Source: Bilabrum cf. latius
Taxonomy: Eukaryota
Assembly: GCA_965178125.1 (NCBI GenBank)
Contig: OZ237735.1
Location: 1,116,001-1,180,000, forward strand
Direction of reading: 5' to 3'
Length of the DNA stretch: 64,000 bases
A model generated the notes under the pieces. The model was not told the origin of the DNA. It was given only the letters and a program-made list of their open reading frames with translations, and made no database searches. Position numbers and translations under genes: made by a program. Positions within the stretch are counted from its first letter, which is position 1. Each line of letters opens with the position of its first letter. Shown one piece after another: positions 6,001 to 45,731 of the stretch.

Positions 6001-6426
6001 GCCCGACACCGAGTTCGTCGCAAACCCAGATCCCACGCTCACGCTGCCCGATGAGCCAGACCCAGCGTTCCCGCTCGACACAGACACCACGCCAGTGAAG
6101 CCGCCCGTGGACACACCACTCGACACATCCACGGCCCCAGACGAACCGTCCGATCCAGACCCAGCCGCGCTGCCCACGCTCACAGACCCGCTCGTCTGCC
6201 CGTCTGCCGCGCCCCCAGACTGCACGCGCACCAGCCCGCCCGTGCCGCTCGTACCAGAGCTGGACCCGGCCAGCACGTACACGGACCCGCCAGCCTCAGA
6301 CACGCCGCTCGTCTGCGATGCCTGCACAGACACAGACCCACTAGCACCCAGCGTGGACTCCCCAGTGCGCAGCACAAGCCAGCCAGCGTCGCCCGACGAT
6401 GCGTCGCCAGTCTCAACCACCACGTT
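1..6426. repeat. Near-perfect coding tandem array, units of 696 bp (232 aa) or 606 bp (202 aa)
   Basis: Anchor GTGAAGCCGCCCGTGGACAC at 191, 887, 1493, 2099, 2705, 3401, 4097, 4793, 5489, 6095 (spacings 696, 606, 606, 606, 696, 696, 696, 696, 606). Units differ by a 90-bp block (two 45-bp sub-repeats) and a few scattered substitutions. Confidence 0.98.
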
Positions 6427-9400
6427 ACCGCTATCACCCAAGTGTGCTGTGTTTGAATGTATTCGAATGGATCCCGAGGATGCGCCTGATGCAGATCCAG
6501 ATTCAATCAGAATGCTTCCGGAGTCTTGCAACTGTGTTGATCCCGTTCCAATTTGTACATCGCCAGAGTTTCCATCTAATGCCGTGCCAGTTCTGAGCTA
6601 AACGGATCCAGAGTTACCGGAATGTGCGGCACCAGAGTCGAATAACATGTTACCTGAGTTTGCTCCAGACGCAGTTCCTGACGATATCTGCACTTGCCCA
6701 GAATTTGCTAGAATCGTGTCACCCGATGAAAAAGTTAGTGCACCGGACTGGCCAGCAGTTGCTAATCCGGAGGCAATTTCGATGTTTCCTGAAACACCGG
6801 ACCCTGCCGATCCAGATTGCACTCGGACAGTGCCAGAGAACCCCTCGGTTGAACTACCACTGAATATGTCCATGCTACCCGATGATCCATCCGTTCCAGT
6901 ACCATCGGCAGTGAAAATGCGTACTCTACCAGATGTACCAGCTGCCGCTGATTGGCCACTACCAATTTCGATTTCACCTCCATCGTTTGAAGCCGTTTGA
7001 GACTCACCAGCGGAAACGTAAACAGATCCCCCCGCGTGGCTTTGAGCTGAACCGGCTGAGATGCTCACAGACCCGGAATCTCCTCGATTCGCATTGCCAG
7101 TCGAAAGAATCAGCCATCCACTGCTTCCTGAAGTAGCTTCGCCGGTTTCAAGTAGGATTTGTCCCGACTAGGCAGATGATGAAGCACCGGTATTCAACTA
7201 AATGTCACCAGAATCACCTTGATCGGATGAACCGGTCTGAATCGTCATGGTGCCGGATGGCCCTCCGAGTGAGTTGCCCGAAACCAATGAAACTGATCCG
7301 GAGTCGCCCTGGCCTGCGGTTCCTGTCGCAAAGGTTAGTCGTCCAGAGTCCATGCCAACTCCATTGGCGTCAGCTGTTTTGACAGACACGCTTCCTGACG
7401 ATGATACACTACCGCCGCCAGATGTGATGCTGACGAGTCCACCAGTGGAGGCAGCATCCGTGGTGCTACCAGCAGCAATATACACATCGCCTCCATTGCC
7501 GGAATCAGACAGTCCACTTAGCACGGAGATGGATCCAGCGCCACCACTAGATGCTGTGCCAACAGCAAGATAAATGTCCCCGGAGTCCCCACATGTGGAT
7601 GTCCCAGTCGTTAGGCTGATGACCCCGCTGTCCCCGCTGTTAGCATCACCAGTGAAAAGGCTAATTCTGCCGGTGTCGTCCCTGAAAGGCGCATCAGGTG
7701 TAGAGATCGTAATTTCTCCGGACGATGACGACAAACCTTGACCGCTTGAAAGCTCTAGCGGTCCACCGTGCTACCCTGGCCGACGTACCTGACCTGCGGA
7801 CAAAACAAGACGCCCGCCACTGCCAACATCCCCGGAGCCAACAACGATCGAGATAGAACCAGAAGTACCGGAGTCTGCAAAACCAGTGTTCAATACAAGC
7901 GTTCCAGTATTGCCACTCTAAGTAGCTCCGGACTCGACGCGAACATCGCCGCTGTTTCCATCTTCTGCTGTCCCACTGACTATACTCATCGCCCCAGAGT
8001 CGCCACTGTCAGCTGAGCCGCTCCTGATCTGGACACCACCAGATGATCCCTGCGTGCTTGAGCCAGAAATAAGCGAGATTGCTCCCGATCCACCAGCTGT
8101 AGTGTGACCAGTAGACAACAAGATAGTGCCACTTGTTCCACTGGTCGATTGGGGTGTTCTAATCTGGATAGACCCCGAGTTCGCACCTTCCCCACTGGCC
8201 AACTCGACAGATCCACCGGTAGAAGATCCATCAGATGTGCTACCAGCAGAAATAGTAACAAGACCTCCGACGCCAGAATCAGCGGAGCCGACTGTCATCG
8301 AGATCGACCCAGCATTTCCAGACGAGGCTTGCCCGGTAAAAAGAAGGATATCACCACCTTCACCGCCGCCCGTTGTGCCAGTAGAGAGCAATATCGTCCC
8401 AGAAAGCCCACGTGCCACTGAATTAGCAGTCCGAAGCGAGATTCCGCCTGAATCACCACTGATTGCCTGACCGGTCGAAACAAGTACCCTACCACCGGTT
8501 CCGCCAGCAGTGTCTAGGGTCTGTCCGGCGCCAATTGTAACATCTCCACCGTTGCCACGCCCGGCAGAGCCCACTGACATCAAGATGCTTCCTCCAGACC
8601 CAAGAGAAGATGTGCCCGTCGTGATGGACACATCGCCCGTGTCATCTTGGGCCGCCGTACCAGTGCGAACCGTGAACGAACCGCTCTGACCGCTGAGGAG
8701 AGCATTGTGAGTCCGCAAAACAATGTTTCCAGTAGTGAGCCCTGAGCCAGACTCGACAAAAAAATCCCCACCCACGCCCGCAAACCCATCTGTTGACTGT
8801 CCGGCAGACAGGTATATACTGCCGCCTTTGCCATCAGTTGTAGATCCAGCAGTAACACTGATAGAGCCGGAGCTGTCTCCAACAGCATCCCCAGTTCGAA
8901 TGTTAATTGGGCCGGACTCTCCGCTGGATGAGGTACCAGTTTGAAGAGTCACGCTGCCGCTCTCACCAGCTAGCCCAGCATTGGCAGTTCTAATCAGAAC
9001 ATCTCCAGACGTCGAAACTTCTCCAAGGCCTGAGGAAATCGACACAAAACCTCCTGTGCGTCCTTCACCGTTCCCGGCTCGAATGATAATGTCGCCACCT
9101 TCACCATCATTCAAACCATTCCCAGCAACTGCGAGGATGTCCCCACCGGGTTCATCTGCACCCTTAGTGTCACCAGCACGAAGCAGGATGTCACCGCCAG
9201 GTCCAGAACTCGCAGTTCCGACGCTTATTATGATGTCACCACTGGCATCAACAGAACCTTCACCAGTCGAGATGATGACCTCTCCGGCTTGTCCACTCGA
9301 AGCCGTACCGGTTTGCAGAATAATGTCTCCAGACCTCCCACGCCGACCAGCATTGGCTGTTCTGATCAAAATAGATCCGCTGGTGCTGTCCTCAGATCGA

Positions 9401-12400
9401 CCGCTCAAGATTGTGACCCATCCTCCTGTGTTGAACGACGTCGCACCACCGATGATGTCCACAGCTCCACCAACGACAGCATCCTCACCAGTACTGTCAC
9501 CTCCGCGCACCACGACTCGACCACCTGATGCCTCGCCAGCGGCATCTCCTGCCCTCACAAGCACGCCGCCACCGTCGAGAGTACCATCACCCTAGCCAAC
9601 TGTTATGCTGATATCACCCCCCGGCCCACTGCGACCATCACCCGAGCGGATCGCAATTCCTCCGCCGCGCGCTTGGTTGATGTTCGAAGCAGAACCGGAC
9701 TTGATGAGAACCTCTCCACCATTCGACATGGGAGATGATGTATTTCCAGCAACTAGGCTGATGCCACCGCCAGCCCCAAAGTCAGAGGTTCCAGCTTCAG
9801 CAATTATGCTACCAGAACTTCCAAGCGTTGTGTTTCCGGATAACAACCTTATGTCCCCACTACCACCACTGTTCGACGACCCAGTTTGGATCTCGATGCT
9901 TCCGCTTGGGCCACCTTCAGATCCCGAGTCACCGGTTCTAAGGAACGCGTCGCCGCTGCCTGCAGCTGTAAGGCCGTCACCTGACTGCAAGAAAAGATCA
10001 CCTCCCCTTGATCCGTGACTGGAACCACCTTTGATCATAACAATTCCACCAGTCCCACCGTTCTAGCTCGTGCCTGCACCACCCTAGATATCAATGGCTC
10101 CACCGGTTCCGTCACGAGACGTGGAGTTGCCAGCACGGGCAACGAAGTCGCCCGCTTGGCTGCCCTCATGACTTCCAATTCGAATCTCGACGGATCCCGA
10201 CTTGTGAGAGGATGGAAGTTGTGCGCCAGGACCAGACGAGGAGCCAGTCTAGAGTATTAAACGACCCGCTGCACCATCACTAGCATTGCCGGTTCCGAAG
10301 CTCACATTTCCGGTCCTTGCAACTCCGGCGCCTGATTCGATAGAGACATTTCCTGATTGCCCGAGGAAACCTACAGTGTTGTCCCCACTGCGAATCTCTA
10401 CTGCGCCTCCTTCCTACTGTGATGCAGAGCTAGATCCACCAACGATGATTACCCGGCCACCATCGAGGCCAAGCTCATGGGAAACGTTGCCACCAGCCAG
10501 GACTACGTCACCCCCGCCACCAAGCATGCCATCAGCTGCGCCACCACCAATCACAACGCTGCCGCTCTAGACAGGTCCGGACCCAGTGCCACCATTCAGC
10601 TGCACACCTCCTCCAGCGCCACCAGTTGAGTCTCCACCTCGGAAGTCCACACTTCCACCGTCCGCACTTGCGACGTCAGTTGCGCTACCGGCAGAGGCAA
10701 CGATACTGCCGCCCTTTCCGCCAATCCCAAAGCTTGAGCCCGACTGGATCACCACATCCCCAGCAATTCCGTGTGATGTGTTTCCAGACCCGATTTCAAG
10801 TGCGCCTGACGATGCCCCTGTAGCATTTGAAGTCCCCGTACGGATAGATACCATGCCGGAGGCACCGTGCAGGGCAAAGCCACTCTCAATGGATACATTA
10901 CCAGATGCAGACCCGCGACGATCTCCAATCGCTCTACTCGCGCCACTATCAGCTCGCCCATTTGCAGAGCGTACAACCACGTCTCCAGAAACACCAAATG
11001 CTGCACCGCCCGACTACAACAGAAGTTCACCACCGGTCGAAGATCCTTCGCCTGCCTTAACAAGTACGCTGCCACCGACGCCCCCTGCTGCATTCGAAGC
11101 CGGCACATTCCCTGCAATAATATTGACAGAGCCTCCCTGACCGATAGCTGACTTGGTCGTCGAGCTGCCAGCAGCAATAGAGACGTCCGAGCCGTTCACG
11201 GCATCTGACGAGCCAACCTCGATCTCAATCGAGCCTGCGCGGGAAGACTAAACTCCGACCGCCGGTCCCGTCACAAAGCGAATAGACCCAGACTGCGAGC
11301 CATTACCACCAGTCGTACCCTGATCGACCGTGCCGGACAATCCAGTCGCAATGATTACATCCCCACTCACGCCTCCTGAGCTTGCAGCAGCCCCTGACTC
11401 CAGCCTAACACCACCACTACTGCCCTTGAGACCACTTCCGTCTGCAGTTCGAATCAATACACGGCCAGAACCGTATGCGTCACTGCCAGCGCCGGATTCG
11501 AGGGTAACTTGCCCACCCTGCCCATTCGAGGCGAGGGATGACCCACCACGAATGTCAACAGACCCAGCGACGCCGCCTCCAAGAGTAGTTGAGCCTGCCT
11601 CAATCGTTGTGTTGGCTCCATTCATCCCTGCAGAGCGACCAGCTGCAACTCGCACGTTACCGGCTCCTGCAGAGCCGAGACCATCACCGGAGCGAACATG
11701 CAACGAACCGGAGCGCACAGAAGTACTTCCTTGCTGCCGTCCTGACGACACGGTACCAGTGGCGATCTTCACGCTTCCCGAGCCGTGTGCTAGCACGCTT
11801 CCAACTACAGGCTCCTGTGACGCGGATTGAATCATAACCTCACCAGATGCTGCCTTGTCAGATGCACCTGACTCGATCGTAACAGCCCCACCCTGGCTGG
11901 ACTTCGAGCTGCCACCATTAATGCTCACAGACCCTCCTTCACTGCCCACGGCGCCAAGCCCTTCGCCACCGCGTATGTTAACACGGCCACCGCTAGATCC
12001 CGATCCAGACGCTGCACCTCCTTCAATTGAAGCGTCTCCAGCCGCAGTAGACGGAGCAGACGTGGTACCACCTAGCAGGGAAGCCGACCCACCGGGCCCC
12101 ATCAAGCTGGATCCGCCGGCCACCGTGGTATCTCCGCCTCTTGCCGGTCCCGATCCGCCCGATAGCTCCAGTGCACCTCCTGATGAGGTCGGTTCAGATT
12201 CCAATCCATCCCCACCTGATATAGAGACTGATCCGCCCAGTCCCTGGGACCCTCCTGCACCAGATACAGCACCACCTTTGATGGAAACGCTACCAGAGCC
12301 AGCCAGTCCTCCAGCTCCGGGGGCAATCTCAATATCACCAGATCGGCCCGCTTGGCCTGCATCGCCGGTGTGAATGTGCACGCTTCCAACCGTTGCAGAG

Positions 12401-15400
12401 TCTGTCGGGGCGTCAGACGAGGACACGAGCACCGTGCCAGTTCCAGTGGGGCCTGAACCAGAAGTGACGACGGCATCACCGCCCTTGCCACTAATACTGT
12501 AGCCACCTGCAACGATTGCAGATCCACCAGTCGAACCAATACCGCGAGCTTCACCACCTGTTACCGCAGCAGAACCTCCAATTGAGCCAGCATCTTCCGA
12601 TGCGCCGCCGTCGAGGCGTACTGCTGATCCCACTCCGGCTGAAGATGAGCCAGCTCCGAGAATCACTGATCCAGCCGATTCGGCTCTGCCAGACCGAATT
12701 AATACATCACCAGAGCGCCGGGATGCTTCACCTGTCGCCAGAGTCGCGGATCCAGAGAGATCCCCACCGGAACCAGTCCCGACTACGACTTCACCAGAGG
12801 GAAGCGACGGGTCTGTTGACTCTCCACTGGATACGAGAACCTTGCCAGCTACTTCACCGCTACCCGAAGAGATGACAGTATCACCGCCTCTAACAATGCC
12901 ATCTCCGGACGAAATGTGAACTGCGCCACCGGACTTCAGTCCAGATCCACCAGTCATTCGCACCATACCGCCATCGCTACTTGACGACGACCCACCTGAG
13001 ACTTCGACTGCAGATGCAGCCGACTCCACGGTGTCTCCGGAGCGAACTAACACGCCGACAGTACCAGGTTCAACCGTGAGACTTGAGCCCTGCACGATGT
13101 TAACTTGTCCTGCCGTAGCTGCATTGCCAGTCCCGACAGACACGTTACCTGAGCTCTTGCTGGGAGAATCCCCCGTACCAATCATCACACCACCGCTTTG
13201 CCCTTCGCTCGTAGCGTCATGAGTACCTATACGAACCATTCCAGATGTCTCGCTGCCAGACGCAGAACCGGAAGTGATGACGGCATCCCCGCCAACGCTG
13301 TTGCCGTCTGCGAGCGACGAACCTCCCTGGACTACGGCAGGACCTGGGGAAGATCCAGCTTCAGTGGCGTCGGCACCGCTGAGAACAGCAGCTCCGCCGC
13401 GGCCCCCTGCAGCCAGCGAACGACCGCCAACCACCTTCGCATCGCTGCCCAGCGATTGAAGAGTGCTACCAGCCGAAACAGTCACAGTACCAGCACGGCC
13501 GGCGCCGGCACTTCCAGAGGCAATCGACACATCGCCAGACCCACCCTGACCGCTTCCTGTCTAGTCGCTGTTCTGCGAGCCGGAATAAATTCGGATCTGG
13601 CCTGATCTTTGTCCGTCTTGGACTGGTGCGGACCCTGCATGAAGTCTACCCGAGGTGCTACCCTGGCCTGAGGTTGGTACAGCTCCCGAAATGACTTGTA
13701 CATCTCCACCAGTCACTGCTTGAGTTCCGGAGCCAGCAACCGACCCACCGGCAACGGTTACGCGACCACCACGGCTACCATGCCCAGTGGCTGAGCCACC
13801 AGCCACCAGAACCTCACCACCAGTCGCTACCTTGCCATCGGAGGATACATCACTTCCTGTGACGCTGACTTTGCCGCCAGCTGCCAGAGACCGGCCACCG
13901 GAAATCCTCACGTCGCCTGCGGTACCAGCGGAGGCATCACCAGACGACACATGAATGTCACCAGACGACGACCCGACCCCACTAGAAATGCCAGATGTCA
14001 CCGAAACGTTACCTGATATGCTTCTATCCCTCGAAGACACCCCAGAGCCGAGGGCTACAGACCCAGACCCTGCACCGCCAGGGCCAGAGAACAGTGATGC
14101 ATCACCAGAAATACCCTGCTTGCCGGCAGCCCCAGTAGATATTTGAACTTGGCCTGATGTACCAGTCTACAAAGTAGACTCACCAGAAACAACCTGGACA
14201 TCGCCGCCTAGCTGGGTTCCAGTGCCACCGGATAATTTCGCTGTGCCTCCAAGCCTACCACTGCTGCCACTCGCACCAACCACAGATACCGTGGCAGCGT
14301 CTCCAACAGAGTCGCCAGGCTTGATCATGATGCTACCCGCAGTCGCTGCGTCGCCAGTTCCGACGGTCACGTCACCTGACAGCTAGCCATCACCGCCGGC
14401 AGCAGCGCTGGACACGACAACATCTCCTGTGCTCCGGCCGACACCCTCGCCAACGATCCGACCAGAGCTAATGGCCACGTCACCACCAGATCCAGTGGTG
14501 GCAATACCACCGGACACCTTCACCAAGCCACCCTTTTGAGTAGCTGATGAGCCGCCGCGGACTTCAACGAGACCAGCAGCCTGCTGCGAGTCTCCAGCAG
14601 TTACGAGCACGCCACCCGATTCGTCACCTGCACCAGACGATACAGACACCGGCCCAGACTGCTTTCCTTGCCCGGACCCTACATCAACCCGACCAGATCT
14701 AGTAGTAGCAGACGCGGACACCACCCTAATGAAGCCACTGCTGAGGCCCCTACCGGACGATACCGTAACGCTGCCTCCGGGAGAATCCTGATTGGAACCG
14801 GTGCTGTCGCCAGCAGCAACAACAACCCCTCCAGGCGATGCACTCTTGCCAGTTGTAATGGTCACAGACCCAGACCCATCAGAAGCGCTCCCCGTAGACA
14901 CGGTTACGTCTCCCGAATCGTGTCCAGCAGAGCCATCCGCCGAGGCTACAGAAACAGTCCCAGAAGAGCCGGTGGACGAGCCTCCAGAGCGAACTTCAAC
15001 TGAACCACCAACGCCCGAGGTCAAACCATCCGCGCTGTCAAACTCACCACCACGGAGCACTACTCTAGATCCAGCAGACCCTGCACCAGAGGAGCCGGCC
15101 CGGACAATCACATCTCCGGCCGAACCGAACTTTGCATCACCACTTGAAACAGACACATTTCCGCTCGATGACACAATACCACTGGCAAAGCTCTCGAGAT
15201 CATTGGCTGCACTGCCTGAACCGAGCTCAACTTGTCCTGACGCAGCATTGGATGCAGCACTCGAAACGCGGACTGCGCCACTCGAACCCGTAGTGCCGCC
15301 TGCTCCACTCGACACATGTACGGCACCACCTACTGTGCCCCTCGCAGTCGAAGCCCCTCCCTGGATCTACACAATTGCACCAGCAGTATCAGATGCACTC

Positions 15401-18400
15401 GTAGACCCGGCTTCGATCTAGATGCTGCCAGCTCGACCGGCCATAGAACGGCCGGTGCTCAACCGGAGAATGCCAGAGTCTCCACCGAGACTCCCCGTTG
15501 CATCCCCGGACCTCAGCGTGACATTGCCCGAGGATGAACCATCCGTAGAATTTGCGAAGCCGCCCAAGCCGCCACGGGCAGTCTACAAGTCCAGATTACC
15601 GGATCGCTTGCCAGCGGGATCGTTGGGACCAATAGTAAGCCTCTTGTGCTGAGCCTGCATGGCAGCCAGCAAATCGATCGCGATACGAATCTTGTTGACC
15701 TCATGAAAGTCCTCCAAATCGAACCCTTTATCCTCGAATTGCATTCTGTCAGTGATTGTGATATACTCTGGGAACTGCTTGTGCACTTCCTGTGCGATCA
15801 CGCCGCGTACCCGGACGTCGTCAATGCCTCGCACCTTCCGCCAGTCCTCAGTGTATTGGTAGCTGGTGACGCGGAGTCTCTGCATACGTTGAAGCAAATC
15901 CTCTTCGTCAACATTCTCAATGTTCCGCTTGATGCGTCGATCGGATGGTGAGATCACCTCAACGATGTCGGCAGGTACGTGCGAGAAGATCTTTTGCCCA
16001 CGAACGCGCATTACGACACCGCTTCTTGTGGTTGCATCGCCGTGCGCAATCTGAAATTCCTCCCCATCGCCACCAACAGTGATTCGCATGCCACCGCCGG
16101 CTTCAATGTTAAAGTCAGAACCCTTCTCGGACTGCATTTCGACATCTCCATGGCTTCCAACGGCGAACCGACGGTTGCCATCATTGTCTACCACCTCGAA
16201 GGTCCCGTCGCTCCCATGCGACGTGCCTGTTGGGTCTGCAGCGCCCTTCCCAAGCTGTACACGTACAGAGCCTCCATCGCCAGCTGCTGGGAGGCTTTGA
16301 TCCTGGTTGTTGGCCTCGCCAGTCGGTGCCTGAGCGCCACTCACGGAAATGCTTGCGCCTGTAGCCCGCCCAGCGTCGCCAGCTGAGACCTGCGTGTCTC
16401 CAGCCGTGATATGGACACTGCCAGCTCGAGCCTTGCCGACAGCTTCACCGGTTTGAATACGAACATCGCCTGAAGCAGCAGCCCGAGAAGCGCCAACACC
16501 AGCAGAGATTCCCGGAGAGGTCTTGATGACGACGGTTCCAGTTGAGCCGCGGCCAGTCGAGGATGGTCCTGAGGTCAGCTCAACATCGCCGCCATCCTGG
16601 ACACCCTCGCCACCGACAATCCGTACTGAACCGCCAGCCGATCGGGAACCATGGCCACTACCAGCTTCAATTGAAACATCGCCGCCAACACCATCCGGAG
16701 TCAACTCGCCAGAGGAAGAACCACCACGGATCGCAACACGTCCTGCATCGCCAGCGGAGAGACCAGCAGCCACGGATACATCGCCGGCACGCCCAGTTGG
16801 GGCATCACCTGACGCGATGGAAACATCACCAGAAACCTGCTTCGAGTCAGGAGTAGCACCCTGAGGCATTGCATCTACATTTCCAGACCCAATGCGCACT
16901 TCGCCAGAAGATCCGACTCGCTGGGCAGCACCAACGCCAGTCAAGACTGTTACTTGACCACTGGTGCCACTTACGCTCAGTCCTGACTCGATTGATACCT
17001 TTCCGCCAGATCCTGATCCACTTGCGGTTCCACCCCGGATCTCAACACCACTGGCATCTCCACTTGCGGATCTCCTGCTGCCACCAGCGATCTTGATGGA
17101 CCCAGCTTTGCCCTCATTGGATTCACCTCCTTCAATGGTTATGTCACCAGCTGCAGCTCCGATTCCGGTGCCCTTGGCAGAGCCTGTGCGCAGCGTGATG
17201 TCACCAGACTTGCCGCCTCCGTGCATCCCGGCTGCTGCAGCGGCATCTCCGAACGATCCATCCGCGGAGACGATATCAATGCTTCCCGATTCACCTCCGT
17301 CCGATCCTCCGGAAGCCAGCAAAACGCTACCGCCAGATGATCCAGCTGCCTTGCGAGCCGCACCAGCTTCGACGACAACGTCACCACCGCTGGATCGATC
17401 CGAGGTCGTTTCGCCGGCTGCGATACGAACTTGACCGGGAGAAGCACCGCGGTGCGCTGCGCCGGCTTTGACTACAACATCTCCAGCGATCTGCTTTTCG
17501 CCAACTGCAGCTCCAGTGCCGATTTGCACGTTCCCTGAAGATCCTCCTGACGCGCTGCTCGAGTCCCCAGGCGCACTGCCGAGCTGCACTGTGCCACTCT
17601 TCGCACCAGGCCCAGACACTCCGCTCGTTACTTCAACTGCACCACCAGGTCCCGCAGCAGCTGCACCGCCTTGAACAAGAACACTTCCGCCCATGTCAGT
17701 AGACATGCGCTGTCCGGCTGCACTGCCACCAACAACGGTCACATTTCCACCACTGCCACCGGACTACACGGGTCCACGAGCCGCAGTACCTGACCCAGCC
17801 TCAATGCGGACCGAGCCGCCGCTAGCACCTGCAGAAGCAACATTGCCTGCCTAAACACGAACCGCGGAAGACTCAGAATCGAGCTTAGACGTGGCGCTCG
17901 AACTCCCAGCCATAATCTCGACGGGCCCAGCAGCACCGCCCGCAGAGTCTCCGCTCGAAATGGTGACTGCACCACTTCGGCCCGTAGAGCTGGCACCCGT
18001 CACCACTGTCACGTTCCCGCTCACCGTTCCATTGGATGAACCGATACTCACAGACCCTGACGAGCCTGCCTTGCCTCTGTGACCGCCGGACTAGATTTGA
18101 ATGGAACCGCCCACAGCCACCCCAGCGGTGCCATCCGCCTAGCGGCGTGAAGAGCGAGCTTGCCCTGGCTGAATAATTACATCGCCAGCACCACCGTCAG
18201 CCTCTCCAGTCGTGACACGCACATCCCCACTGGATTGACCAACGCCACCAGCGGGGCTTTGTGAGTCGCCAGAACCGATGATTACATCACCTGACGCGCC
18301 TTTGGTAGCAGCGCCTGATGTCAACGAGACTCGACCTGTCTTCTCAGCCTCGGCGGACTACACGTTTACATCACCAGAGTTGTACACCCAGTTGCCAGAC

Positions 18401-21400
18401 TCCACAACAACGTTGCCGCCAGGACTGGCACGGCTGCCGTCCTCCCGCATAATGTCCTGCGAGCCGTCGAACACTGAGCGAACGCGAGCAGAATTTGGGC
18501 CCCCAGCTCCATCCACATCGAAGCCTCCTGCCCGCAGCTGAATGTTGCCTCCGGTCTTGCCGCGAGACTTGCCTGTCTCAATGATGATGGGGCCAGCAGC
18601 ACCACCCACTCCGATGGCATCGCCAGTCCTGATGTTCATTGCGCCGGACCCACGGCCGCCACTGCTGCGCCCAGACGATACGAACACCTCCCCAGAAACT
18701 GAGTCAGGGTGCGTGCTCTCCGACTCGGCAGTCTCTATCCAAATCGCGCCAGACGTGCCACCGTTCGGACCACTCTTGCCAGTCCGAATGTGGATCATTC
18801 CACCGCTGCCCCTGCCCTGAGCAGAGCCTGCTACCATTGACACGCTGCCGCCCATGTCGCGGATGGATTGCCCCATTGATTCACCTGCCTCGATGCGAAC
18901 AGCGCCGCCATCGCCGCCGTCTTGCTGGCTGTTCGAGGTGCCTGAGCCACCACGGAGTAGCAAGTCACCGCCAACTCCCTGGTCACTCGCGGATTCACCA
19001 GCTGCAACAGTCACATCGGCGCCGTCACCGCGCTGGCTAACACCAGCAGCCACAGAAACAGCGCCGGCTTCACCGCGCTCGCTGTCCCCAGTCACCAGAC
19101 CAACTGCGCCAGACTTGCCCATGGAGGCACGGCCAGTTCTGATGATGATTTCCCCAGAGGGTCCCATGGCAACGGAACCACCCCTTGGAGACAATCTATT
19201 GTCACCGTCAGAGCCCTGAGCATCCGCAGTGGTGATCTCGATACCACCGGTTGGCCCACGATGTGCTTGACCCGTTGTCAGCCTCAAACGACCTCCACGA
19301 GCCCCCACATCGGCAGTAGAGCCGGCGGAGAGGACAACGTCCGCACCCTCGCCCTGCATGGATTCTCCTGCACCGATGGACACTCCGCCGGCGGAACCAT
19401 CCAAGGCATCACCTGTTCGGATCTCGACGCCTCCTGCAGAACCACTCTCCGAGTCACCCGTACGGATAAAGACTCCGCCTGATGAGCCACGAGTTCCGCT
19501 AGTCGGTGTCACCATTGAAACAGCACCAGACGACGAGTACTCAGATGGACCCGAGCTGAGGACGACATCACCACCACTTCCACCTTTTGCCGCTCCGCCC
19601 TTGAGCACGACACGACCAGCAAATGCATGCGTATTGAGAGAGCTAGACTCGCCACCGGAGATGCGCATGTCACCTCCCTTACCGCCCCGGATCTTGTCGG
19701 CACTCGACCCAGCGCCTGCCTTGATGCTCACCACACCGCCAGTACCATCCACGGCAGTGGACTCACCAGCTTCAATTGTCACAGCTGCGCCAACTTGCGA
19801 CGCACCTGATCCGGCAAGCAGGGACACAGCACCGCCAGCTCCAGCGCCGGCTCGGGCACCTGCAACTGTCGGCTTTCCTCCTGAACCGCCCTGGAACACA
19901 AACGAACCTGCGTCGCCATCTGTTGCATCTCCAGTAGTCAAGGAAAGCGAGCCGGAAGTTCCCTTGGTGCCGGCATTGGCAGTCCGAATGGAGACTGAAC
20001 CAGAGCTTGTCTCGGCAGACTCGCCCGTGCTGAGCTCGATAGCACCGCCAGTTGCCTTGGCAGCGCGACCGCCGGAAATCTCGACGGCACCACCAACAGC
20101 ACCAGCGCGGATTGCAGACGGAGACTTTCCGGCCGCAGAACCACCGAGTATGCGAACGCGTCCGCCCTTGCCTTCGGCTTCGTTCTGTCCGGCACCTGCA
20201 TTCACGAGGACATCGCCACCGCGCCCCTTTACATTCGAAGAAGCACCGCTTCCAAGGAACACATCGCCGGCTTTCTTGCCAGTGCTGCTACCAACGGCAA
20301 GCATGATGCTGCCTGCATTGCTCCCATCGGAGTCCTGGGCTGTTGCACCGGCACTGCTGGGACCAGCGGCGTGCCCAGTCGACAAGAGAATGCCGCCGGT
20401 GCTCGTGTCCAGGCCAGATGACGCGCCGGTTTCGATGCGAACATCACCACTGTCGCCCAGTCTTCCTGCGTCTACCGTGTCGATCATGACGGAGCCCGAG
20501 TCGCCCTCACGAGCTCCACCAGCGGCAATCTGCACGTCACCACCAGCCGCCGATCGCCCTGAAGCTCTCGCGCCGCCTGCAGCAATTGTGACATTGGCGC
20601 CTCGCGTCCCGCTGCCACCTCCAGAAACTCCCGCAGAGATATCAATACCTCCCGCTGAACCGCCTTGCGAGGCACCTGTGGAGACCTCGACAGATCCTGA
20701 AGTGCCGCTTCCGACGCCAGCTCCAGTGCGGAGTTGGAGGTCGCCGCTGCCACCGCCACGAGTGCTGCCCTCAGCACTCTCGACTATCACCTGGCCACTC
20801 GGCTGCGTGCCCTCACCAGCTCCAGAGCGAACCTCGACCGTACCACCACGGGCCGCGGAAGAGGACCCGCCATTTATGACGACGTCACCGCCCACGTCAG
20901 ACAGTGGGTTCCCGCCGAAGCCACGGCCAGCACTAATGCTCACTGCCCCACCGTTCCCGCCATCAATCGGAAACGTTGACAAGCCATCGCCGGCGCCGAT
21001 GATTACGGAGCCGCCAGTGCCCTGCTCAGACGTGGTATCGCCGGCGTCGACCCAGACGTTCCCGCCATCTCCTCGCACGCTGCCATCTCCAACTTTGAGC
21101 ATGATGTCTCCGCCGGGCCCATCTGCAGACGCACCGGTAACGAACTCAGCGGCTCCTGATGCTCCAGAGCTGGAATCGCCGGTTTGGAGTCGGATACCTC
21201 CGCTGTCGCCCTGTGAACCGCCGTCGGCGGTACGAACGAGAACGGGGCCGCTGCCACCAGCAGCTGATGCGCCCGACTGCACCTCGACAGATCCACCACG
21301 GGCACCGCCAGGGTCATTTGACTCTCCTCCAGCAATGCGAACGCTACCACCGACACCAACGGCGCCACTGCCGACCTGAACGTTGATGTCCCCGGCTGCG

Positions 21401-24400
21401 CCAAGGGCTGCGTTGCCAGTGCTGATGCTCACCGAGCCGGAATCGCCGAAAGCAGACTTTCCTGTCTGCAATACGGCAAAGCCTGAAGTTCCTGCGCGAC
21501 CACTGTCTGCAGTCACTAGTTCCAGAGCTCCTGAATCCTTCTCAGTGGAAGCTCCGGTTCGAACGGTCACGCGACCACCAGTGCCAGCAAATGCTGCTCC
21601 GCCATTCAATTCGACTGCGCCGCCGAAGTCAGTCTCGTTGGAACCACGAGCTTCTCCACCACTGATTGACACTGCACCCCCACGACCGCCGTTCAATGAG
21701 GATGGATTGGAGCCTTCACCACCACGGACAACGACCTTGCCGCCCTCAGAGCTCTCGGATGAGGTTCGGCCGGCTGCCACCAACACGTTGCCACCATCGC
21801 CGAGGTCGCCATCGCCTACAGCGATAACAACGTCACCGCCAGCTCCATTGGTTGCCGGGCCGGACTGCAAGGCGACTGTGCCTGAAGGCCCACCAGTAGA
21901 CACTCCAGTTCCGATCGCAACATCGCCAGAAACACCCGAAGTGCCGCTGTTTGATGTCCTAATGACAACTGCTCCAGAGTCCCGCGTGGCACTGTCGCCG
22001 CTGCGAATCTCAACGCGACCACCAGGGCCAGCCTCGGCAGGCCCACCCTCAAGCACAACAGCGCCACCTGCATCGCCTGGCGACATTCCCATAGCTTGAC
22101 CACCGCCGATGACCACGTTGCCGCCATCTCCACCATTCACGTCATCGGTGCTGCTGCCCCGCCCACCAAACAAGCCGATTGAGCCTCCAGCGGCACCCAC
22201 GGCAGTGGATTCGCCACCTGCCACGTTGACTGAAGCTCCAGAACCGACCGCGCTGCTGCCGCCAACAACGTCAACATCGCCAGCCGTCCCGGCCGCTGCA
22301 TTCCCTGAGCCAAGGCTCACCCTGCCGGTGTCGCTCGTGTCACTCGTGCCTGTCTGGATAATGACCTGACCAGATTCGCCCAGAGGCCCAGCGTCCGCCG
22401 TGCGGATACGCACATCTCCGGACGTGGTGCGATCGCTGGAGCCGCTGACGACATCGACATGCCCACCAGTCTGGGTGCCAGAGCTGCCCCCGGACAGCTC
22501 AAGCAGGCCACCAGGTCCGCTCTCGCTGCGACCGCCACTCATGCTCAACCCAGCGGCCGTTCCGTTGGGCACATTCGAGGCCCCAGCCTCAATCAGAATG
22601 CTGCCAGCATCCGCGCTGGCACTCTGATTGCCTGCACCACCTCGAATGATGACTCTTCCGCCACCTGCAGTGGCATCAGTCGTGTTTCCGCCGGTCAGCG
22701 TAAGATCGGACCCAAAGCCAGAGCCAGAGATCCCCGCAGACACCGAAATAGCGCCCGCCGAGCCAGCTGGCGCATCGCCAGAGTGCACAAGGACGTCCCC
22801 ACTGCGCGAATCATCACCAGCATTCGCGGAAGCGCGGCCAGATCCGACTGAGATATCACCAGTGGACCCACCGCGAGCCCCTGCCACATCGGAGGTTCCT
22901 AGCCCGTCCGCTGACCCGATGGTGATAGGGCCAGATGTGCCGTTGATTGCAGATCCAGACTCCAGCTAAAGCGATCCGCCGTGTGGTGCACGTGCAGTTG
23001 CCTGTCCTCCAGCAGCGAGCGCGGCCTCTTCGGCGATGTCATCAGCACTGGCTGACGCGTTGGCACCCATTGGAGCTGCACCACCACCAGCAATCACAAC
23101 GCCAGCACCGCGAGCAGATGCCTTGCTACTGCCAGCGGCAATGTTGATGCCACCTGCCTTTGCAGCAGGAGACCCAAATGATGCGCCGCTGCCAATTCCT
23201 GCGTCGCCAGAGCGAATCTCGAGTGAGCCGGTTCCTGAGGTGCTCGAGCTACCGCTCTGTACGGTGGTGGAGCCGGTGGGGCCCGACTATGACGAAGCCG
23301 ATCCCAGAATTGCCCTACCACCACTGCTGCCAGACCCACCAGCTCCTGCGAGCACAGTCAGGTCACCGCCGGAACCATTTGAAGCGCTGCCTGATTCGAT
23401 GCGGATAGCACCACCGCTTGCGCTCGTGTTCGCGGCCCCGGCACCGCCGGAGATGGACACTGCTCCAGCTGCTCCACCGTCACGAGATGAGGCTCCTCCT
23501 TGGATGGAGACGTTGCCAGCCAGACCTTCACTGCCCTCAATGGCACTGTCACCACGCCCGGCGGATCCAGCTGAGATCTCGACAGATCCTGCGCCGGCAC
23601 CGTCGGAGCCATCACCACCCGCAATTGACACCCCACCGGCCCGTCCCCTGGAGCCAGTGGCAGCGCCTGCAGCGACGGATACGTCACCGCCAGTGGCAAA
23701 AGAGGCACGCTCAATCTCGCGCTCGTCTCCGAGCAGCGCACGCTGCCTTTCTGCTTCTTGTGCGGCGGCCGTGGCGTTCACGGCCCCCGTGCGTAGCTGC
23801 AGCCCGCCGGAGCTGCCTACGGTCTTGGTCTGCCCATCCCCACCGATCGAGCCGGCGGTTTCAAGAGTGATGGATCCAGACCCGCCCCGGCTAGTTGAGC
23901 TGCCAGAGCGGATGGTGACCTCGCCGCCAGTCGCATCGGAGGTCAACGGGGCTGCAAGCTCACCGGCTTCCACAGCCACCGAGCCTGCTGATTGAGACCC
24001 TGAGCCAGCAGAGAGGCTCACGGAGCCTGCAGATCCCTTTGGCGCAGCGCCCGTGCGAATCGTCACGTCCCCAGTGCTGGAGCTGTCAGCAGCACCTCCT
24101 TGGGCACCTCCCGTGGAGATTTCAACCTGACCAGAAGCAGAGCCTGCGGCATTGGCAGCCGTGTTGCTGCCAATGCGGACTGCCCCAGAGATGGAGCCAG
24201 CTGCAGACGTGGCACCAGTGCGGATATCCACGTCTCCGCCAGCGCGTCCGGCAGCTGAGGAGCCAGCGACAATGCTGACCGAGCCGCCATCACCGTCCGC
24301 AAGAGCACGCCCAGCACGCAGATGGAGCGCGCCACCGGCGCCTGCGCCTCCGAGGCGCTCCTCCCCGCTGCCATCGCCTGCCTGGACCGTCGCAGACCCA

Positions 24401-25261
24401 CCAGCACCGCCGCTGGGGCTTGCACCCGAGCCGGCTGCCAGTGTGGCAGAAGCGCCTGCGGTGGAGGCGCGAGAGTCGTTCCCTGCAGCGAAATCAACAT
24501 CACCTGCGGAACGCAAGGTTGTTCCTTCGCCCGTCACTTCGAGAGCGAACGTGCCGGCGGGCTGCGCCTCGCCCGTGCCGTTCGCTGGGGCCGGGGCGCC
24601 GCCGCCGCCACGGGTGCGGTTTCCGAGGAGCCGAAGCTCACCGCCACCAAAGGCCGGGTCGCCCTCAATGCGAACGTTTCCGAGCACGCGATTCTCGCGC
24701 ACAAACGTTGGTGGGCAAGGGGGGCCGAAAATGGTACCCCTGCAGTCGCCATCCATGGCTTCTGGGATCGTGACGCAGCGGGACTGGCTGCCGCACCAGG
24801 CGCACTCGTCGTGCGCAGCGCACGGCTCGCATCCATCCAGCTAGGCACAAGGAGGTGCCACTGGGCAACCAGCGTCCTCGCCGTCACTTGAAGCGTAGAG
24901 CCACTCCTCGCAAGCACCGCCACCGGCGGGGCCGTCTGGGCTGCCAGCCTCGCACTGCAGCGAGTCCAGGCAGTAGCCGCAGCCCTCTGTTGCGACACAA
25001 GGAGAGCATGATGTTGTGATTTCGGTCCTGCGATTTTAACTTGCGGTGGCAATGGGATATACTAGTGTGATCCTGCTGACGGTGACTGAACGGCCGAACC
25101 GCCGAAAGACAGATAAATGACGATTAACCTCACCAAAAATCTTGATCTCCGTCAGTATTGAATGAAGAACATGTGTTTGAGTCCCCTGAAGCTGGGAGAA
25201 CGCCAGCAGCGGCCAAAATAGCCGCGGCGATAGCCATTCTTGCCGCCAGCGGGGCACTCAT
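1..25261 (-). CDS. Giant secreted Gly/Ser-rich beta-repeat (fibre-like) protein with N-terminal PSI domains and an internal peptidase S74 (ICA) domain; >8,385 aa, 3' end beyond window; exons 25261-25134 and 25027-<1
   Basis: ATG at 25261 gives signal-peptide-like MSAPLAARMAIAAAILAAAGVLPASG. The GTGAG...CGCAG intron 25133-25028 joins in frame. All minus-strand ORF fragments ending at 6598, 7198, 7918, 9592, 10567, 11014, 11248, 13561, 14167, 14383, 15583, 17851, 18139, 18358 and 23287 share one frame and end at TAG (27 in-frame TAGs by manual count, no TAA/TGA). The frame is open to position 1. Confidence 0.9.
15640..15945 (-). other. Peptidase S74 / intramolecular chaperone auto-processing (ICA) domain, MYRF/phage-tailspike type, inside the giant protein
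   Basis: PSDRRIKRNIENVD...LQRMQRLRVTSYQY...RGVIAQEVHKQFPEYI...FHEVNKIRIAIDLLAAMQA matches the S74 signature SDxRxK...GxIAQE. Catalytic Ser at 15943-15945, Lys at 15928-15930. Confidence 0.9.
24710..25010 (-). other. Two PSI (plexin-semaphorin-integrin) Cys-rich domains at the N-terminus of the giant protein
   Basis: SCSPCVATEGCGYCLDSLQC...C and GCEPCAAHDECAWCGSQSRC...C fit the CxxC...CxW/YC PSI pattern; a TAG at 24841 lies between them. Confidence 0.8.
25028..25133 (-). other. Spliceosomal intron (106 bp)
   Basis: Donor G|GTGAGG, acceptor CGCAG|; removal links the signal-peptide exon in frame (TG+G = Trp). Confidence 0.85.
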
Positions 25262-25657
25262 GGATCGTCGTTCGATAGAAATACCCTGCAGCACTTCTTG
25301 TCTTCTTGTTCAGCTTTGGTTGCGCAACTCTGTGAAAATTGATGCACACCTGTTTCACGATGCCTTGATGTCGGCTTGAGATCCTCTGATGGACCTCGAC
25401 AGTGGCGTTTTTGGGGTTCAAGCGACAGATTTGCTCGGACGCGGTCGCAACAAGCGGTGCGTTGGATTTTTCTTGCGGTTACAACCACTTTCAAGAAGAA
25501 GATTAAAACCACCTCAAACTGCAGAAAATAAAATTGAACGCTTATAGTACGCAGCCAAGAAAAGTTTTTGTATTCAGTTTTGGTGTTTCGATGAGTCAGG
25601 TTGCTCCCAATTTGAAGTCCTAGTCTTGAGTAGCAAGTTGTTGCTATTTCGAGCCCA

Positions 25658-37600: not shown

Positions 37601-38488
37601 GCCAGCAAGCAGCAGGTCATCAAGCAGTCCAAGAGACGTCACCTGCTCTGGGAGTGCCCAATGCCCGGCAGGCTGTAGTGACGAATTCAGCGAAGTGGGA
37701 CTTTTGGCAGCGTCGCGAAATGCCTGAGGATCTAGGCCAAGGGCCTGGACCTGATCCCGCATGCCATATGCCAAGCGAGGATCTATAGTGCCTGTCGCAT
37801 TCTGGCACACTGGCTCCCCACGATCAAGGATTTCGGGAGATCCCAAGCGGCACTACTCGAGAACTACTACATACCACTGGGACCATGCACCTGGGCGAGC
37901 TTGATAGCTCAGGGAAATGGCTGCACTCGGCAAGTGCCCGCTGGTTACTGCAACTGTTCCGACTCGCACCGATCCAGTCTGCTTGCCGATCATAGTCTGC
38001 AGCGAGCGCACTGTCAGCCAAAACCTTGGTTCCCACGGTGTTGATGCATTTGTACGCGCGCTGAGCAACACGGCGGAATCTGAGTAAATTGCAATTAGAT
38101 CTCTCGAAGCCGCACTTCGCCGCAAAGTGGACTCGAAAGCCGCAGATCCGGCGACTGACAGAGCCGAAGGAAGTGCGCTGACCGGATTCCACACTCCTTC
38201 TGGAACTATATAGGTCCTGTTGAACTGCGAGTAAACGAAGAGGCCTCCGTACCCGCTCAAACCATACCCAAGCCCACCCTCATTCGCGTTGTTGTTGTAT
38301 AGCAAGTAGCGCGGGGTATCAACTGCGTGAGCGCAAACAAGCACGTAAAACTTCGATTTCCCAATGAAATACGTTATAATATGCCAAGGGTAGGTCTATC
38401 TTTGCTTACCGATCTACGCGAAAGATGTTCGATGGGAAAGCAATACGAAGCCAAGGGCCAGCAGGCTTGCTCTAGTACAGTGAGGCAT
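25658..38488 (-). CDS. Giant type-I membrane RING-H2 E3 ubiquitin ligase (~4,250 aa): signal peptide, FG-GAP-like motif, Cys-rich module, multiple FN3, EGF, ~5 PSI, CUB-like, TM, RING-H2
   Basis: ATG 38488 MPHCTRASLLALGFVLLSHRTSFA. About 19 ORF fragments in one frame, all ending at TAG; final stop TGA at 25658. FN3 motifs (LQWKPPSSDGGKPIAEY, GLMPGSAYAFYVTSENSIG), EGF (CPNGCSGHGTC...CSCEYGFSTLDC), PSI (CxxC..CGWC), TM (GFIVIVVVVATTFLACLASAMF), RING-H2 (CSVC...LPCKHVYHAACVDRWL...CPMC, ~26225-26350). Confidence 0.88.
38323..38409 (-). other. Probable spliceosomal intron (87 bp, in-frame)
   Basis: Donor G|GTAAGC, acceptor CGCAG|, AT-rich interior, directly after the signal peptide; frame is preserved with or without splicing. 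Confidence 0.65.
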
Positions 38489-45604: not shown

Positions 45605-45731
45605 TACTGGGCGAGAGTTTGCCAATGCACTGCGCCAAATTGAACACACCACGTTCAAATTGATGACAACGCAATGAACCTTCGCTTCGAGTCAGCGAAC
45701 CTTCCTACCGTGACCACCGAAAACACAAAAT

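What the first reader, a model, noticed from the sequence alone, without database searches (positions are those of the whole stretch)
15640..15948. Intact S74/ICA autoprotease placed mid-protein, predicting a self-cleaving fibre polyprotein
Seen: P-S-D-R-R-I-K with intact Ser/Lys at about residue 3,070, then GVIAQEV and a helical segment (IAIDLLAAMQAQHKRL), followed by >5,000 more residues of beta-repeats. Established: in phage endosialidases/tailspikes and in metazoan MYRF, the ICA domain drives trimerisation and cleaves just N-terminal to the Ser; in phage it is normally the C-terminal domain. Inference: cleavage would release a ~3,000-aa PSI-tipped fibre and leave a second ICA-capped fibre, giving two filaments or a regulated release from one gene. 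The sequence looks MYRF-like (FHEVNKIRI vs MYRF FLVVNKERI), so origin from a eukaryotic MYRF-type ICA versus a virus is open.
Basis: partly seen in the sequence, partly recalled or inferred. Interest (0 to 1): 0.75.

Follow-up and report, generated by a model that had tools for sequence, protein, structure and literature searches.

The report
Internal self-cleaving chaperone domain, giant protist protein
A giant secreted repeat protein of a protist that reads TAG as an amino acid carries, in mid-chain, an intact copy of the trimerising, self-cutting domain known from phage tail fibres and the animal factor MYRF, as part of an uncharacterised protein family.

Summary
On the minus strand, 15637-15948 encodes P-S-D-R-R-I-K, GVIAQEV and the helix. 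It hits Pfam Peptidase_S74 at E 1.1e-13, 51.7 bits against a cut-off of 22. It matches human MYRF ICA by sequence (E 2.3e-10) and by fold (Foldseek E 1.4e-8, rmsd 1.9 A).

This holds. The frame has 27 TAG and no TAA or TGA over 25 kb. Eukaryotic neighbour genes carry 2-43 in-frame TAGs each and all six end in TGA.

A spliced model gives a signal peptide, PSI motifs, Ser3071/Lys3076 and then at least 5,315 more residues. A contig from a public run joins the two exons exactly at the predicted intron.

The repeat-ICA-repeat layout is shared by a family. It includes oomycete proteins, a second TAG-recoded metagenome contig, and relatives with two or three ICAs.

Self-cleavage and trimerisation remain inferences. 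26 of 128 family ICA copies lack the catalytic pair. The ICA origin, MYRF-type or viral, stays open.

Verdict: a new variant of a known kind.

The parts
25134..25261 (-). Exon 1: ATG at 25261, then a predicted signal peptide (MSAPLAARMAIAAAILAAAGVLPASG...). It ends in the split codon TG|G.
   Evidence: Three-frame reading, DNA, coordinates and in-frame join. This is the strongest hydrophobic 19-mer of the protein, Kyte-Doolittle 1.91 at residues 5-23.
25028..25133 (-). 106-nt GT..AG spliceosomal intron
   Evidence: Predicted. A 565-nt contig of run X6 joins 25026 to 25133 and skips 106 letters, with ends CT..AC on the + strand. Runs X1 and X5 hold the unspliced DNA. The library kind of X6 is only guessed by the tool.
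1..25027 (-). Giant exon 2: 8,342 codons, with 27 in-frame TAG and no TAA or TGA. It is open at the window edge, so the C-terminus is not in the window.
   Evidence: DNA continuity over 14000-25600 is reproduced with 0 differences by a 48,219-nt contig (X1, possibly the source). Over 14218-24988 it is reproduced by a 10,795-nt contig of another study (X5).
24757..25011 (-). Two Cys-rich PSI (plexin repeat) motifs at the mature N-terminus
   Evidence: PF01437 at E 4.2e-6, 27.4 bits (cut-off 23.1), two stretches.
16024..24756 (-). N-terminal Gly/Ser/Ala-rich repeat region, about 2,900 residues, hydrophobic period 15, super-repeat of about 135 aa
   Evidence: Composition and autocorrelation. Alignment A2 shows the same module on both sides of the ICA and in L002.
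15946..16023 (-). Conserved 'neck' just upstream of the scissile bond (..VMRVRGQKIFSHVPADIVEVISP)
   Evidence: Column conservation across 155 aligned ICA copies, for example Pro 92 of 103 filled rows in SHVP. AF2 gives beta strands here at pLDDT 83-88.
15637..15945 (-). ICA / Peptidase_S74 domain, Ser3071 to Leu3173. Nucleophile Ser 15943-15945, Lys 15928-15930, GVIAQEV, C-terminal helix.
   Evidence: It is the only copy in all six frames of the window.
15583..15585 (-). First in-frame TAG after the ICA, read as sense. A 97%-identical relative (P0002/P0152) has Gln at this position.
6601..15582 (-). C-terminal degenerate Gly/Ser repeat region, about 2,990 residues, same 15-residue period
1..6600 (-). 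Near-identical super-repeats of 232 or 202 aa (696 or 606 nt), about 10 copies, TAG-free, running off the window
   Evidence: Copy number was not checked against reads.

Best explanation
The window is nuclear DNA of a eukaryote that reads TAG as an amino acid, probably Gln. TGA ended all six neighbour genes examined.

One gene (ATG 25261, one 106-nt intron, then an exon of more than 25 kb) encodes a secreted protein of at least 8,385 residues. Its order is: signal peptide, two PSI motifs, about 2,900 residues of 15-residue Gly/Ser-rich repeats, a conserved neck, one ICA (Peptidase_S74) domain, then at least 5,200 residues of the same repeats.

Inferred mechanism, by analogy with phage endosialidase/tail-fibre ICAs and MYRF: three chains meet at their ICA domains in the secretory pathway. 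The ICA trimer templates trimeric folding of the neck and of the repeat region on its N-terminal side. Once correctly assembled, the Ser3071/Lys3076 pair cuts the Pro3070-Ser3071 bond.

The result would be a PSI-tipped N-terminal fibre of about 3,045 residues, plus a C-terminal product that begins with the ICA trimer and continues as a second repeat region. The ICA thus acts as an internal trimerisation and segmentation node of an extracellular fibre or coat protein.

Shown: domain identity, fold, catalytic residues, internal position, gene model, and family conservation.
Inferred: trimerisation, cleavage, fibre nature, and surface location.
For: TAG as a sense codon:
- The frame has 27 TAG and 0 TAA/TGA in 8,342 codons.
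- Six neighbour genes carry 2-43 in-frame TAG each. Five have eukaryotic Pfam domains (UCH twice; fn3/PSI/RING; EGF; Dad2). All six end in TGA.
- TAG falls in repeat slots that also hold Q, E or R.
- A 97%-identical relative has Q at the 15585 TAG position.
- An independent 11,334-bp metagenome contig is one open frame with 25 TAG and 0 TAA/TGA. Its ICA is 68% identical, with about 790 residues of repeats upstream and about 2,850 downstream.

ICA identity:
- Pfam E 1.1e-13.
- The MYRF 7dc3 alignment puts PSDRRIK on P(A)DLRAK and vrGVIAQEV on tGVIAQEV.
- The AF2 model has pLDDT 85.8. Foldseek finds 7dc3 (E 1.4e-8, TM 0.70-0.75 on the target, rmsd 1.9 A over 115 columns), then the endosialidase, T5 and GA-1 ICAs.
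- PMC3742443 (passages read) shows that the MYRF ICA cleaves autonomously in HeLa, yeast and E. coli. It needs S578 and K583 and leaves a C-terminal product that starts at the Ser.

Family:
- 102 of 128 ICA copies keep both Ser and Lys.
- 47 of 95 full-length copies have >=100 residues downstream.
- P0003 has three ICAs and P0004 has two.
- Named members come from Achlya hypogyna, Aphanomyces euteiches and A. astaci.

Secretion and expression:
- Signal peptide and PSI motifs.
- A contig joined exactly at the predicted intron.
Against:
- 26 of 128 family copies lack Ser and/or Lys, including the second and third copies of P0003 and P0004 and a whole sub-clade. The internal ICA can evidently serve without cutting.
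- The known ICA mechanism acts on the sequence N-terminal to it. Nothing found explains how the 5,300 residues downstream would trimerise, and the C-terminus is outside the window.
- The fold of the repeats is unresolved. AF2 gives pLDDT 62.9 with no DSSP strands in its more confident part. Foldseek finds no PDB match at E<=10. The best VIA-align Z is 5.4, below the tool's own noise guide.
- The residue encoded by TAG is not settled. Q, E and R fit the contexts equally.
- The run that holds the spliced contig is only guessed to be RNA.
Confidence: 0.6

Rival explanations
1. Non-cutting trimerisation node. The ICA only brings three chains into register in mid-protein, and the chain stays continuous. 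The intact Ser/Lys would be ancestral baggage or rarely used.
For: 26 of 128 family ICA copies have lost Ser and/or Lys yet remain embedded between repeats, for example P0058 with 420 residues downstream and copies 2 and 3 of P0003. The same repeat module continues on both sides of the ICA.
Against: In the window protein Ser, Asp, Arg, Lys and the GVIAQEV Gly are all present. The rows of its 12-row tree group whose cleavage motif was printed all show a Ser there. P0014 and P0022 printed no motif, and one search lists P0014 as Ala/Lys. In MYRF an intact dyad cleaves constitutively and autonomously in three hosts (PMC3742443).
Confidence: 0.25
2. TAG is a stop, always or partly. The ICA would then be the C-terminal domain of a 719-aa ORF (15583-17742), as in phage fibres, and the 'giant protein' would be a string of separate ORFs or pseudogene debris.
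For: Under table 11 the ORF 15583-17742(-) ends 20 codons after the ICA helix. That mimics the phage arrangement.
Against: 27 TAG and no TAA/TGA stay in one frame over 25 kb, and the repeat register is kept across them. Conserved USP, RING and fn3 genes nearby hold 15-43 in-frame TAG and all end in TGA. L002 shows the same pattern. Relatives called under the standard code continue with repeats after the ICA without any stop (P0008, P0027, P0034, P0155). P0002 reads Q at that position.
Confidence: 0.02
3. An endogenised viral fibre gene from a polinton-like or giant virus, not a cellular gene.
For: S74 domains are common at the C-termini of large modular fibre proteins of polinton-like viruses of protists (PMC12220804, passages read). 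Two of the three feature-based Atlas clusters listed are mostly viral.
Against: Pfam found no viral hallmark family in the window ORFs scanned. The neighbours are cellular housekeeping-type genes. The gene has a spliceosomal intron, a signal peptide and host-like TAG use. tblastn against 50,697 phage records finds nothing at E<=1e-3. An IMG/VR scan gives only a 25-residue hit. Viral S74 domains are reported as C-terminal, not internal. An ancient viral origin of the domain itself is not excluded.
Confidence: 0.05

Closest known systems
MYRF / MrfA membrane-bound transcription factors (metazoa, Dictyostelium)
   Same: The ICA domain is internal, not C-terminal. The Ser-x4-Lys pair, the Asp and the GVIAQEV Gly align. 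MYRF ICA is the best solved-structure match. In MYRF the C-terminal product starts at the Ser and carries further sequence (PMC3742443).
   Different: No NDT80 DNA-binding domain, MYRF_ICA (PF13887) or MRF_C2 is found in the 8,342 codons in the window, whereas true MYRFs in the hit list have them. No transmembrane segment follows the ICA within the window. The protein is secretory because of its signal peptide; that the MYRF ICA is cytosolic is recalled and comes from no call. The flanks are Gly/Ser repeats. The ICA lies across a 0.88-long, SH-aLRT 98 branch from the MYRF-containing group.
Phage endosialidase and tail-fibre ICAs (K1F endoNF 3gw6, T5 pb1 4uw8, GA-1 3gud)
   Same: Same fold (Foldseek E 1e-4 to 3e-3). 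A fibre-like region lies upstream. The Ser/Lys autocleavage logic is the same (PMC3742443 passages).
   Different: In phages the ICA is the C-terminal domain and is discarded. Here at least 5,200 residues follow it. There is no detectable sequence similarity to phage records.
Fibre proteins of polinton-like viruses with terminal S74 (PMC12220804)
   Same: Very large modular eukaryote-associated proteins (up to 3.9k aa) with an S74 domain.
   Different: There the S74 is C-terminal and combined with laminin_G_3, collagen and adenovirus-fibre modules. Here it is internal, within Gly/Ser repeats, in a cellular gene context.
Uncharacterised oomycete 'Peptidase S74 domain-containing proteins' (Achlya hypogyna OQR97563.1, Aphanomyces euteiches CAK4417441.1, A. 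astaci)
   Same: Same family: Gly/Ser repeats, neck, ICA, Gly/Ser repeats, with 41-50% ICA identity.
   Different: The database records are shorter (493-859 aa, probably partial models). Their records show no recoded stop. No function has been assigned.

Membership tests
Peptidase_S74 / ICA domain (PF13884) | Profile match above the curated gathering score | tested here: met
   E 1.1e-13, 51.7 bits against 22.
Peptidase_S74 / ICA domain (PF13884) | Nucleophile Ser with Lys five residues downstream, plus the conserved Asp and Gly | tested here: met
   S-D-R-R-I-K and GVIAQEV align to the MYRF positions listed as key in PMC3742443.
Peptidase_S74 / ICA domain (PF13884) | ICA fold | tested here: met
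   AF2 pLDDT 85.8. Foldseek finds 7dc3 at E 1.4e-8, rmsd 1.9 A over 115 columns, and also 3gw6, 4uw8 and 3gud.
Peptidase_S74 / ICA domain (PF13884) | Homotrimerisation | not testable with these tools
Peptidase_S74 / ICA domain (PF13884) | Ser/Lys-dependent autocleavage | not testable with these tools
   This needs expression of the fragment with S3071A and K3076A controls.
MYRF family | NDT80/PhoG DNA-binding domain N-terminal to the ICA | tested here: not met
   No PF05224 in the protein. It is present in the MYRFs P0125-P0150.
MYRF family | MYRF_ICA segment (PF13887) after the S74 core | tested here: not met
   No hit at E<=1. HMMER filters drop most matches above about 0.1.
MYRF family | Transmembrane helix and MRF_C2 after the ICA | tested here: inconclusive
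   None is found in the 5,315 residues available, but the C-terminus lies outside the window.
Phage-type fibre or tailspike with terminal ICA | ICA is the C-terminal domain | tested here: not met
   It is terminal only if TAG 15585 is read as a stop, and that reading is rejected.
Gly/Ser-repeat - ICA - repeat family (unnamed; oomycete and environmental members) | ICA with the conserved SHVP...PSDxRIK neck, flanked on both sides by G/S/A/T-rich 15-residue repeats | tested here: met
   The window ICA sits inside this side of the tree.

The most novel reading that the evidence does not exclude
A eukaryotic lineage uses ICA domains as modular nodes inside single giant secreted polyproteins. Catalytic nodes (Ser/Lys intact, as here) both trimerise and cut. 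Degenerate nodes (Ser to Ala or Asp, as in copies 2 and 3 of P0003 and P0004) only trimerise. The pattern of nodes would then decide how many trimeric extracellular fibres of what length one gene yields. This would be a cellular, non-viral counterpart of phage tail-fibre maturation, building very long surface filaments.
Probability: 0.3. Interest if true: 0.8.

Novelty: new variant of a known kind. Interest (0 to 1): 0.62.

Why it matters
ICA domains are understood in two settings. One is a disposable C-terminal folding cap of viral fibres. The other is the release switch of the MYRF transcription factor. Here the same domain, catalytically intact, sits inside a secreted protein of more than 8,000 residues built from one repeat type on both sides. 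It belongs to a widespread but unstudied protist family, which includes oomycetes, some of them crop or animal pathogens.

If the domain cuts, one gene yields two or more trimeric fibres. If it does not, it is a mid-chain trimerisation clamp. Either would be a new way for eukaryotes to build large extracellular filaments.

The catalytic and non-catalytic copies within the family offer a natural test set. Separately, the contig documents a GC-rich eukaryote with TAG as a sense codon, where all six genes examined end in TGA. This matters for annotating the organism, because standard gene callers shatter these genes.

Tried and rejected
- The window's own genome is not held. Earlier findings of this scan returned nothing by place or by sequence.
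- Complex prediction for a 3-copy ICA trimer was not available, so there is no trimer test.
- Identity of the TAG residue was not settled:
  - PDB alignments of a USP domain (six TAG sites) and of Skp1 (one site, outside the aligned part) fell at variable or unaligned positions.
  - A context classifier on 52 TAG sites ranked Q, E and R about equally.
  - No tRNA gene lies in the window.
  - Only one orthologous site supports Gln. The 79% relative P0153 has N and S at the two TAG positions.
- The fold of the repeats was not resolved. AF2 gave pLDDT 62.9. Foldseek found no PDB match. VIA-align wide gave a best Z of 5.4, with beta-helix adhesins and phage hyaluronidase at Z 3.5-3.8, all within the tool's noise range.
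- Viral relatives:
  - Phage tblastn found none.
  - The IMG/VR scan by single protein gave one 25-residue hit.
- A search for annotated giant relatives (4,588-14,599 aa) with this ICA found none at E<=1e-5. This is expected if gene callers stop at TAG.
- Placing the organism with a USP domain gave one unnamed hit at 26% identity.
- No RNA holder was listed among the sequencing runs.
- Literature: (listings only, except the passages read) showed no paper on cellular protist proteins with internal ICAs. One search (listing only) showed no paper on a stramenopile-type organism with a TAG-only reassignment. Subscription journals are not covered.
- I considered that the 2,199-aa + strand ORF at 2-6601 might be a gene. 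I rejected it as the mirror of the biased minus-strand repeat.
Full report
**1. What is at the coordinates.**
The feature is on the minus strand. Translating 15421-16320(-) gives ...KIFSHVPADIVEVISPSDRRIKRNIENVDEEDLLQRMQRL...VRGVIAQEVHKQFPEY...DFHEVNKIRIAIDLLAAMQAQHKRLTIGPN.... Checked against the DNA, Pro is 15948-15946, the Ser is 15945-15943 (TCC) and the Lys is 15930-15928 (AAG). The helix ends at 15637.

**2. The reading frame depends on the genetic code.**
Under table 11 the region breaks into many ORFs in one frame. That frame, from 25035 down to base 1, contains 27 TAG and no TAA or TGA.

The rest of the window shows the same pattern. With TAG read through, long minus-strand ORFs appear with 43, 15 and 41 in-frame TAGs. 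They carry eukaryotic Pfam domains:
- fn3, PSI and a C-terminal RING-H2;
- two ubiquitin C-terminal hydrolases;
- smaller genes with EGF, DASH Dad2 and Skp1.

All six neighbour genes examined end in TGA, and none has an in-frame TAA. TAG makes up 0.12-0.36 of TAG+CAG+CAA. This is therefore a eukaryotic nuclear contig in which TAG is a sense codon.

The encoded residue is probably Gln. The only direct support is that a 97%-identical relative (P0002/P0152) has Q at the 15585 TAG position and ends at the next TAG position. Repeat contexts fit Q, E and R about equally. Alignments of a USP domain and of Skp1 were uninformative. No tRNA gene lies in the window.

**3. Gene model.**
Upstream of the giant exon, another frame encodes MSAPLAARMAIAAAILAAAGVLPASG..., followed by GTGAGG. 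A ...CGCAG acceptor lies 106 nt further on. Joining them keeps the frame:
- exon 1 is 25261-25134;
- the intron is 25133-25028;
- exon 2 runs from 25027.

In this model the nucleophile is Ser3071 and the Lys is residue 3076. 5,315 residues run from the Ser to the window edge, where the frame is still open.

Public contigs support the model. In run X6 a 565-nt contig joins 25026 to 25133, skipping 106 letters with CT..AC ends on the + strand. Run X1 (a 48,219-nt contig with 0 differences, possibly the source) and run X5 (a 10,795-nt contig of another study with 0 differences over 14218-24988) hold the unspliced DNA and bridge the ICA and its flanks. The tool only guesses that X6 is RNA.

The start of exon 2 matches Pfam PSI (E 4.2e-6, 27.4 bits against 23.1, two stretches). 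The only strongly hydrophobic 19-mer in the protein is the signal peptide.

**4. The domain.**
- Pfam Peptidase_S74 scores E 1.1e-13, 51.7 bits against a gathering score of 22.
- MYRF_ICA (PF13887) does not match, even at E<=1.
- Against PDB sequences the only hit at E<=1 is human MYRF ICA 7dc3, at E 2.3e-10. PSDRRIK aligns with P-A-D-L-R-A-K, which has Ala where the window has its Ser. vrGVIAQEV aligns with tGVIAQEV.
- PMC3742443 (passages read) names S578, D579, K583 and G626 as key MYRF ICA residues. All four equivalents are present here. The paper also shows Ser- and Lys-dependent, autonomous cleavage in HeLa, yeast and E. coli.
- An AF2 model of 245 residues with a 50-row alignment has pLDDT 85.8.
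- Foldseek returns 7dc3 first (E 1.4e-8, rmsd 1.9 A over 115 columns). The endosialidase ICA 3gw6, T5 pb1 4uw8 and GA-1 3gud follow.
- A family HMM finds only this one copy in the protein and in all six frames of the window.

**5. Relatives and architecture.**
phmmer against 1.84 billion representatives gives 501 hits at E<=1e-3 and 28 at E<=1e-30. The best hits have the same layout: Gly/Ser-rich repeats, a conserved neck (..ISHVPxQ..V.SPSDxRIK), the ICA, then Gly/Ser-rich repeats again.

- P0003 (1,767 aa) has three ICA copies and P0004 has two.
- Of 95 full-length ICA copies among the 150 best proteins, 47 have >=100 residues downstream and 28 have >=100 on both sides. Many records are fragments.
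- Named members are hypothetical or 'Peptidase S74 domain-containing' proteins of Achlya hypogyna, Aphanomyces euteiches and A. astaci.
- A metagenome contig, L002, is a single open frame of 3,778 codons with 25 TAG and no other stop. Its ICA is 68% identical, with about 790 residues of repeats before it and about 2,850 after.
- No predicted protein of 4,588-14,599 aa with this ICA is on record. That is expected if gene callers stop at TAG.

**6. Catalytic residues across the family.**
Of 128 aligned copies with both positions filled, 102 have Ser and Lys and 26 lack one or both. The 26 include copies 2 and 3 of P0003, copy 2 of P0004, and a sub-clade that lost both. The internal ICA is therefore kept in both cutting-competent and non-competent forms. 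The window copy is of the competent form.

**7. The repeats.**
Both sides of the ICA share composition (G 0.24, S 0.15-0.18) and a hydrophobic period of 15, with harmonics at 30 and 45. They also share a super-repeat of about 135 residues, which aligns between the N-terminal half, the C-terminal half and L002. The last 2,200 residues are about ten near-identical 232- or 202-residue units.

Their fold is unresolved. AF2 gives pLDDT 62.9, Foldseek finds nothing, and the best VIA-align Z is 5.4, among beta-helix-type proteins and within the noise range. 'Beta repeats' therefore remains an inference from the sequence pattern.

**8. Relation to MYRF and viruses.**
True MYRFs (NDT80 + S74 + MYRF_ICA + MRF_C2) appear only from about rank 125, at E 1e-9 to 1e-7. 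Collagen-tailed and T9SS-tailed S74 proteins appear beside them.

I built a quick tree of 96 ICA copies over 115 columns. In it, 18 rows lie on one side of a branch of length 0.88 with SH-aLRT 98: the seven MYRFs, the collagen- and T9SS-tailed rows, eight other rows and P0111. The other 78 rows, all but one from the Gly/Ser-repeat family and including the window ICA, lie on the other side. The root is unknown and many forks are unresolved.

Phage records give no tblastn match. IMG/VR gives only a 25-residue hit. Polinton-like viruses of protists carry S74 at the C-termini of large fibre proteins (PMC12220804, passages read). The origin of the domain stays open. The gene itself looks cellular, given its intron, signal peptide, host-like codon use and housekeeping neighbours.

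**9. Most likely mechanism.**
By analogy, three chains would associate at the ICA in the secretory pathway. The ICA trimer would template trimeric folding of the neck and the upstream repeats. The Ser3071/Lys3076 pair would then cut before Ser3071.

That would separate a PSI-tipped N-terminal piece of about 3,045 residues from a C-terminal piece that starts with the ICA and continues for at least 5,200 residues. I put this at 0.6.

The main rival is a non-cutting trimerisation clamp (0.25). The family's degenerate copies make it plausible. The intact catalytic set here and the constitutive cleavage of MYRF argue against it.

The other rivals are unlikely:
- TAG as a stop, with a phage-like C-terminal ICA: 0.02.
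- A recently endogenised viral gene: 0.05.

**10. Verdict.**
The domain class is known and internal ICAs are known from MYRF. The new elements are the context (a giant secreted repeat protein), the family with one to three internal ICAs, and the mix of catalytic and degenerate copies. In the searches named above I found no paper describing this family.

Noticed in passing
whole window, e.g. 25658-38512(-), 45732-52103(-), 55123-63999(-): This is a eukaryotic nuclear contig (GC 0.52-0.67) in which TAG is a sense codon. There are 2-43 in-frame TAGs per gene. TAA is absent in frame, and all six neighbour genes examined end in TGA. The encoded residue is probably Gln but is not settled. One search listing showed no paper on such a code in an oomycete-like lineage.
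   Followed up: partly
25658-38512 (-): A 4,284-residue protein with fn3 domains, several PSI-like Cys motifs, a hydrophobic segment and a C-terminal RING-H2 finger. It looks like a giant receptor-like E3 ligase and lies directly upstream of the ICA gene. Both genes carry PSI motifs.
   Followed up: no
55123-63999 (-) and 45732-52103 (-): Two very large ubiquitin C-terminal hydrolases, of >2,958 and 2,123 residues, with long low-complexity inserts. The first ends with a long (AP)n run.
   Followed up: no
2-6601 (+): A 2,199-codon open frame lies on the + strand opposite the near-identical Ser/Gly repeats. It is a mirror of the biased repeat (GC 0.67, GC skew -0.31), not a gene.
   Followed up: partly
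1-6600 (-): About ten near-identical 696- or 606-nt units, free of TAG, run off the window. They suggest recent tandem expansion. The copy number could be mis-assembled and was not checked against reads.
   Followed up: no
P0003, P0004 (public proteins): These relatives have three and two ICA domains about 380 residues apart. The first copy keeps Ser. The later copies have Ala or Asp at the nucleophile position.
   Followed up: partly
L002:1-11334: A metagenome contig that is one uninterrupted frame of 3,778 codons with 25 TAG. It is an orthologue-like giant ICA protein from a second TAG-recoded organism (GC 0.53).
   Followed up: partly
53688-54431 (+), 45137-45658 (-): Skp1-like and DASH Dad2-like genes. 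The Skp1 match covers only the C-terminal part of the ORF, so its gene model probably has introns.
   Followed up: no
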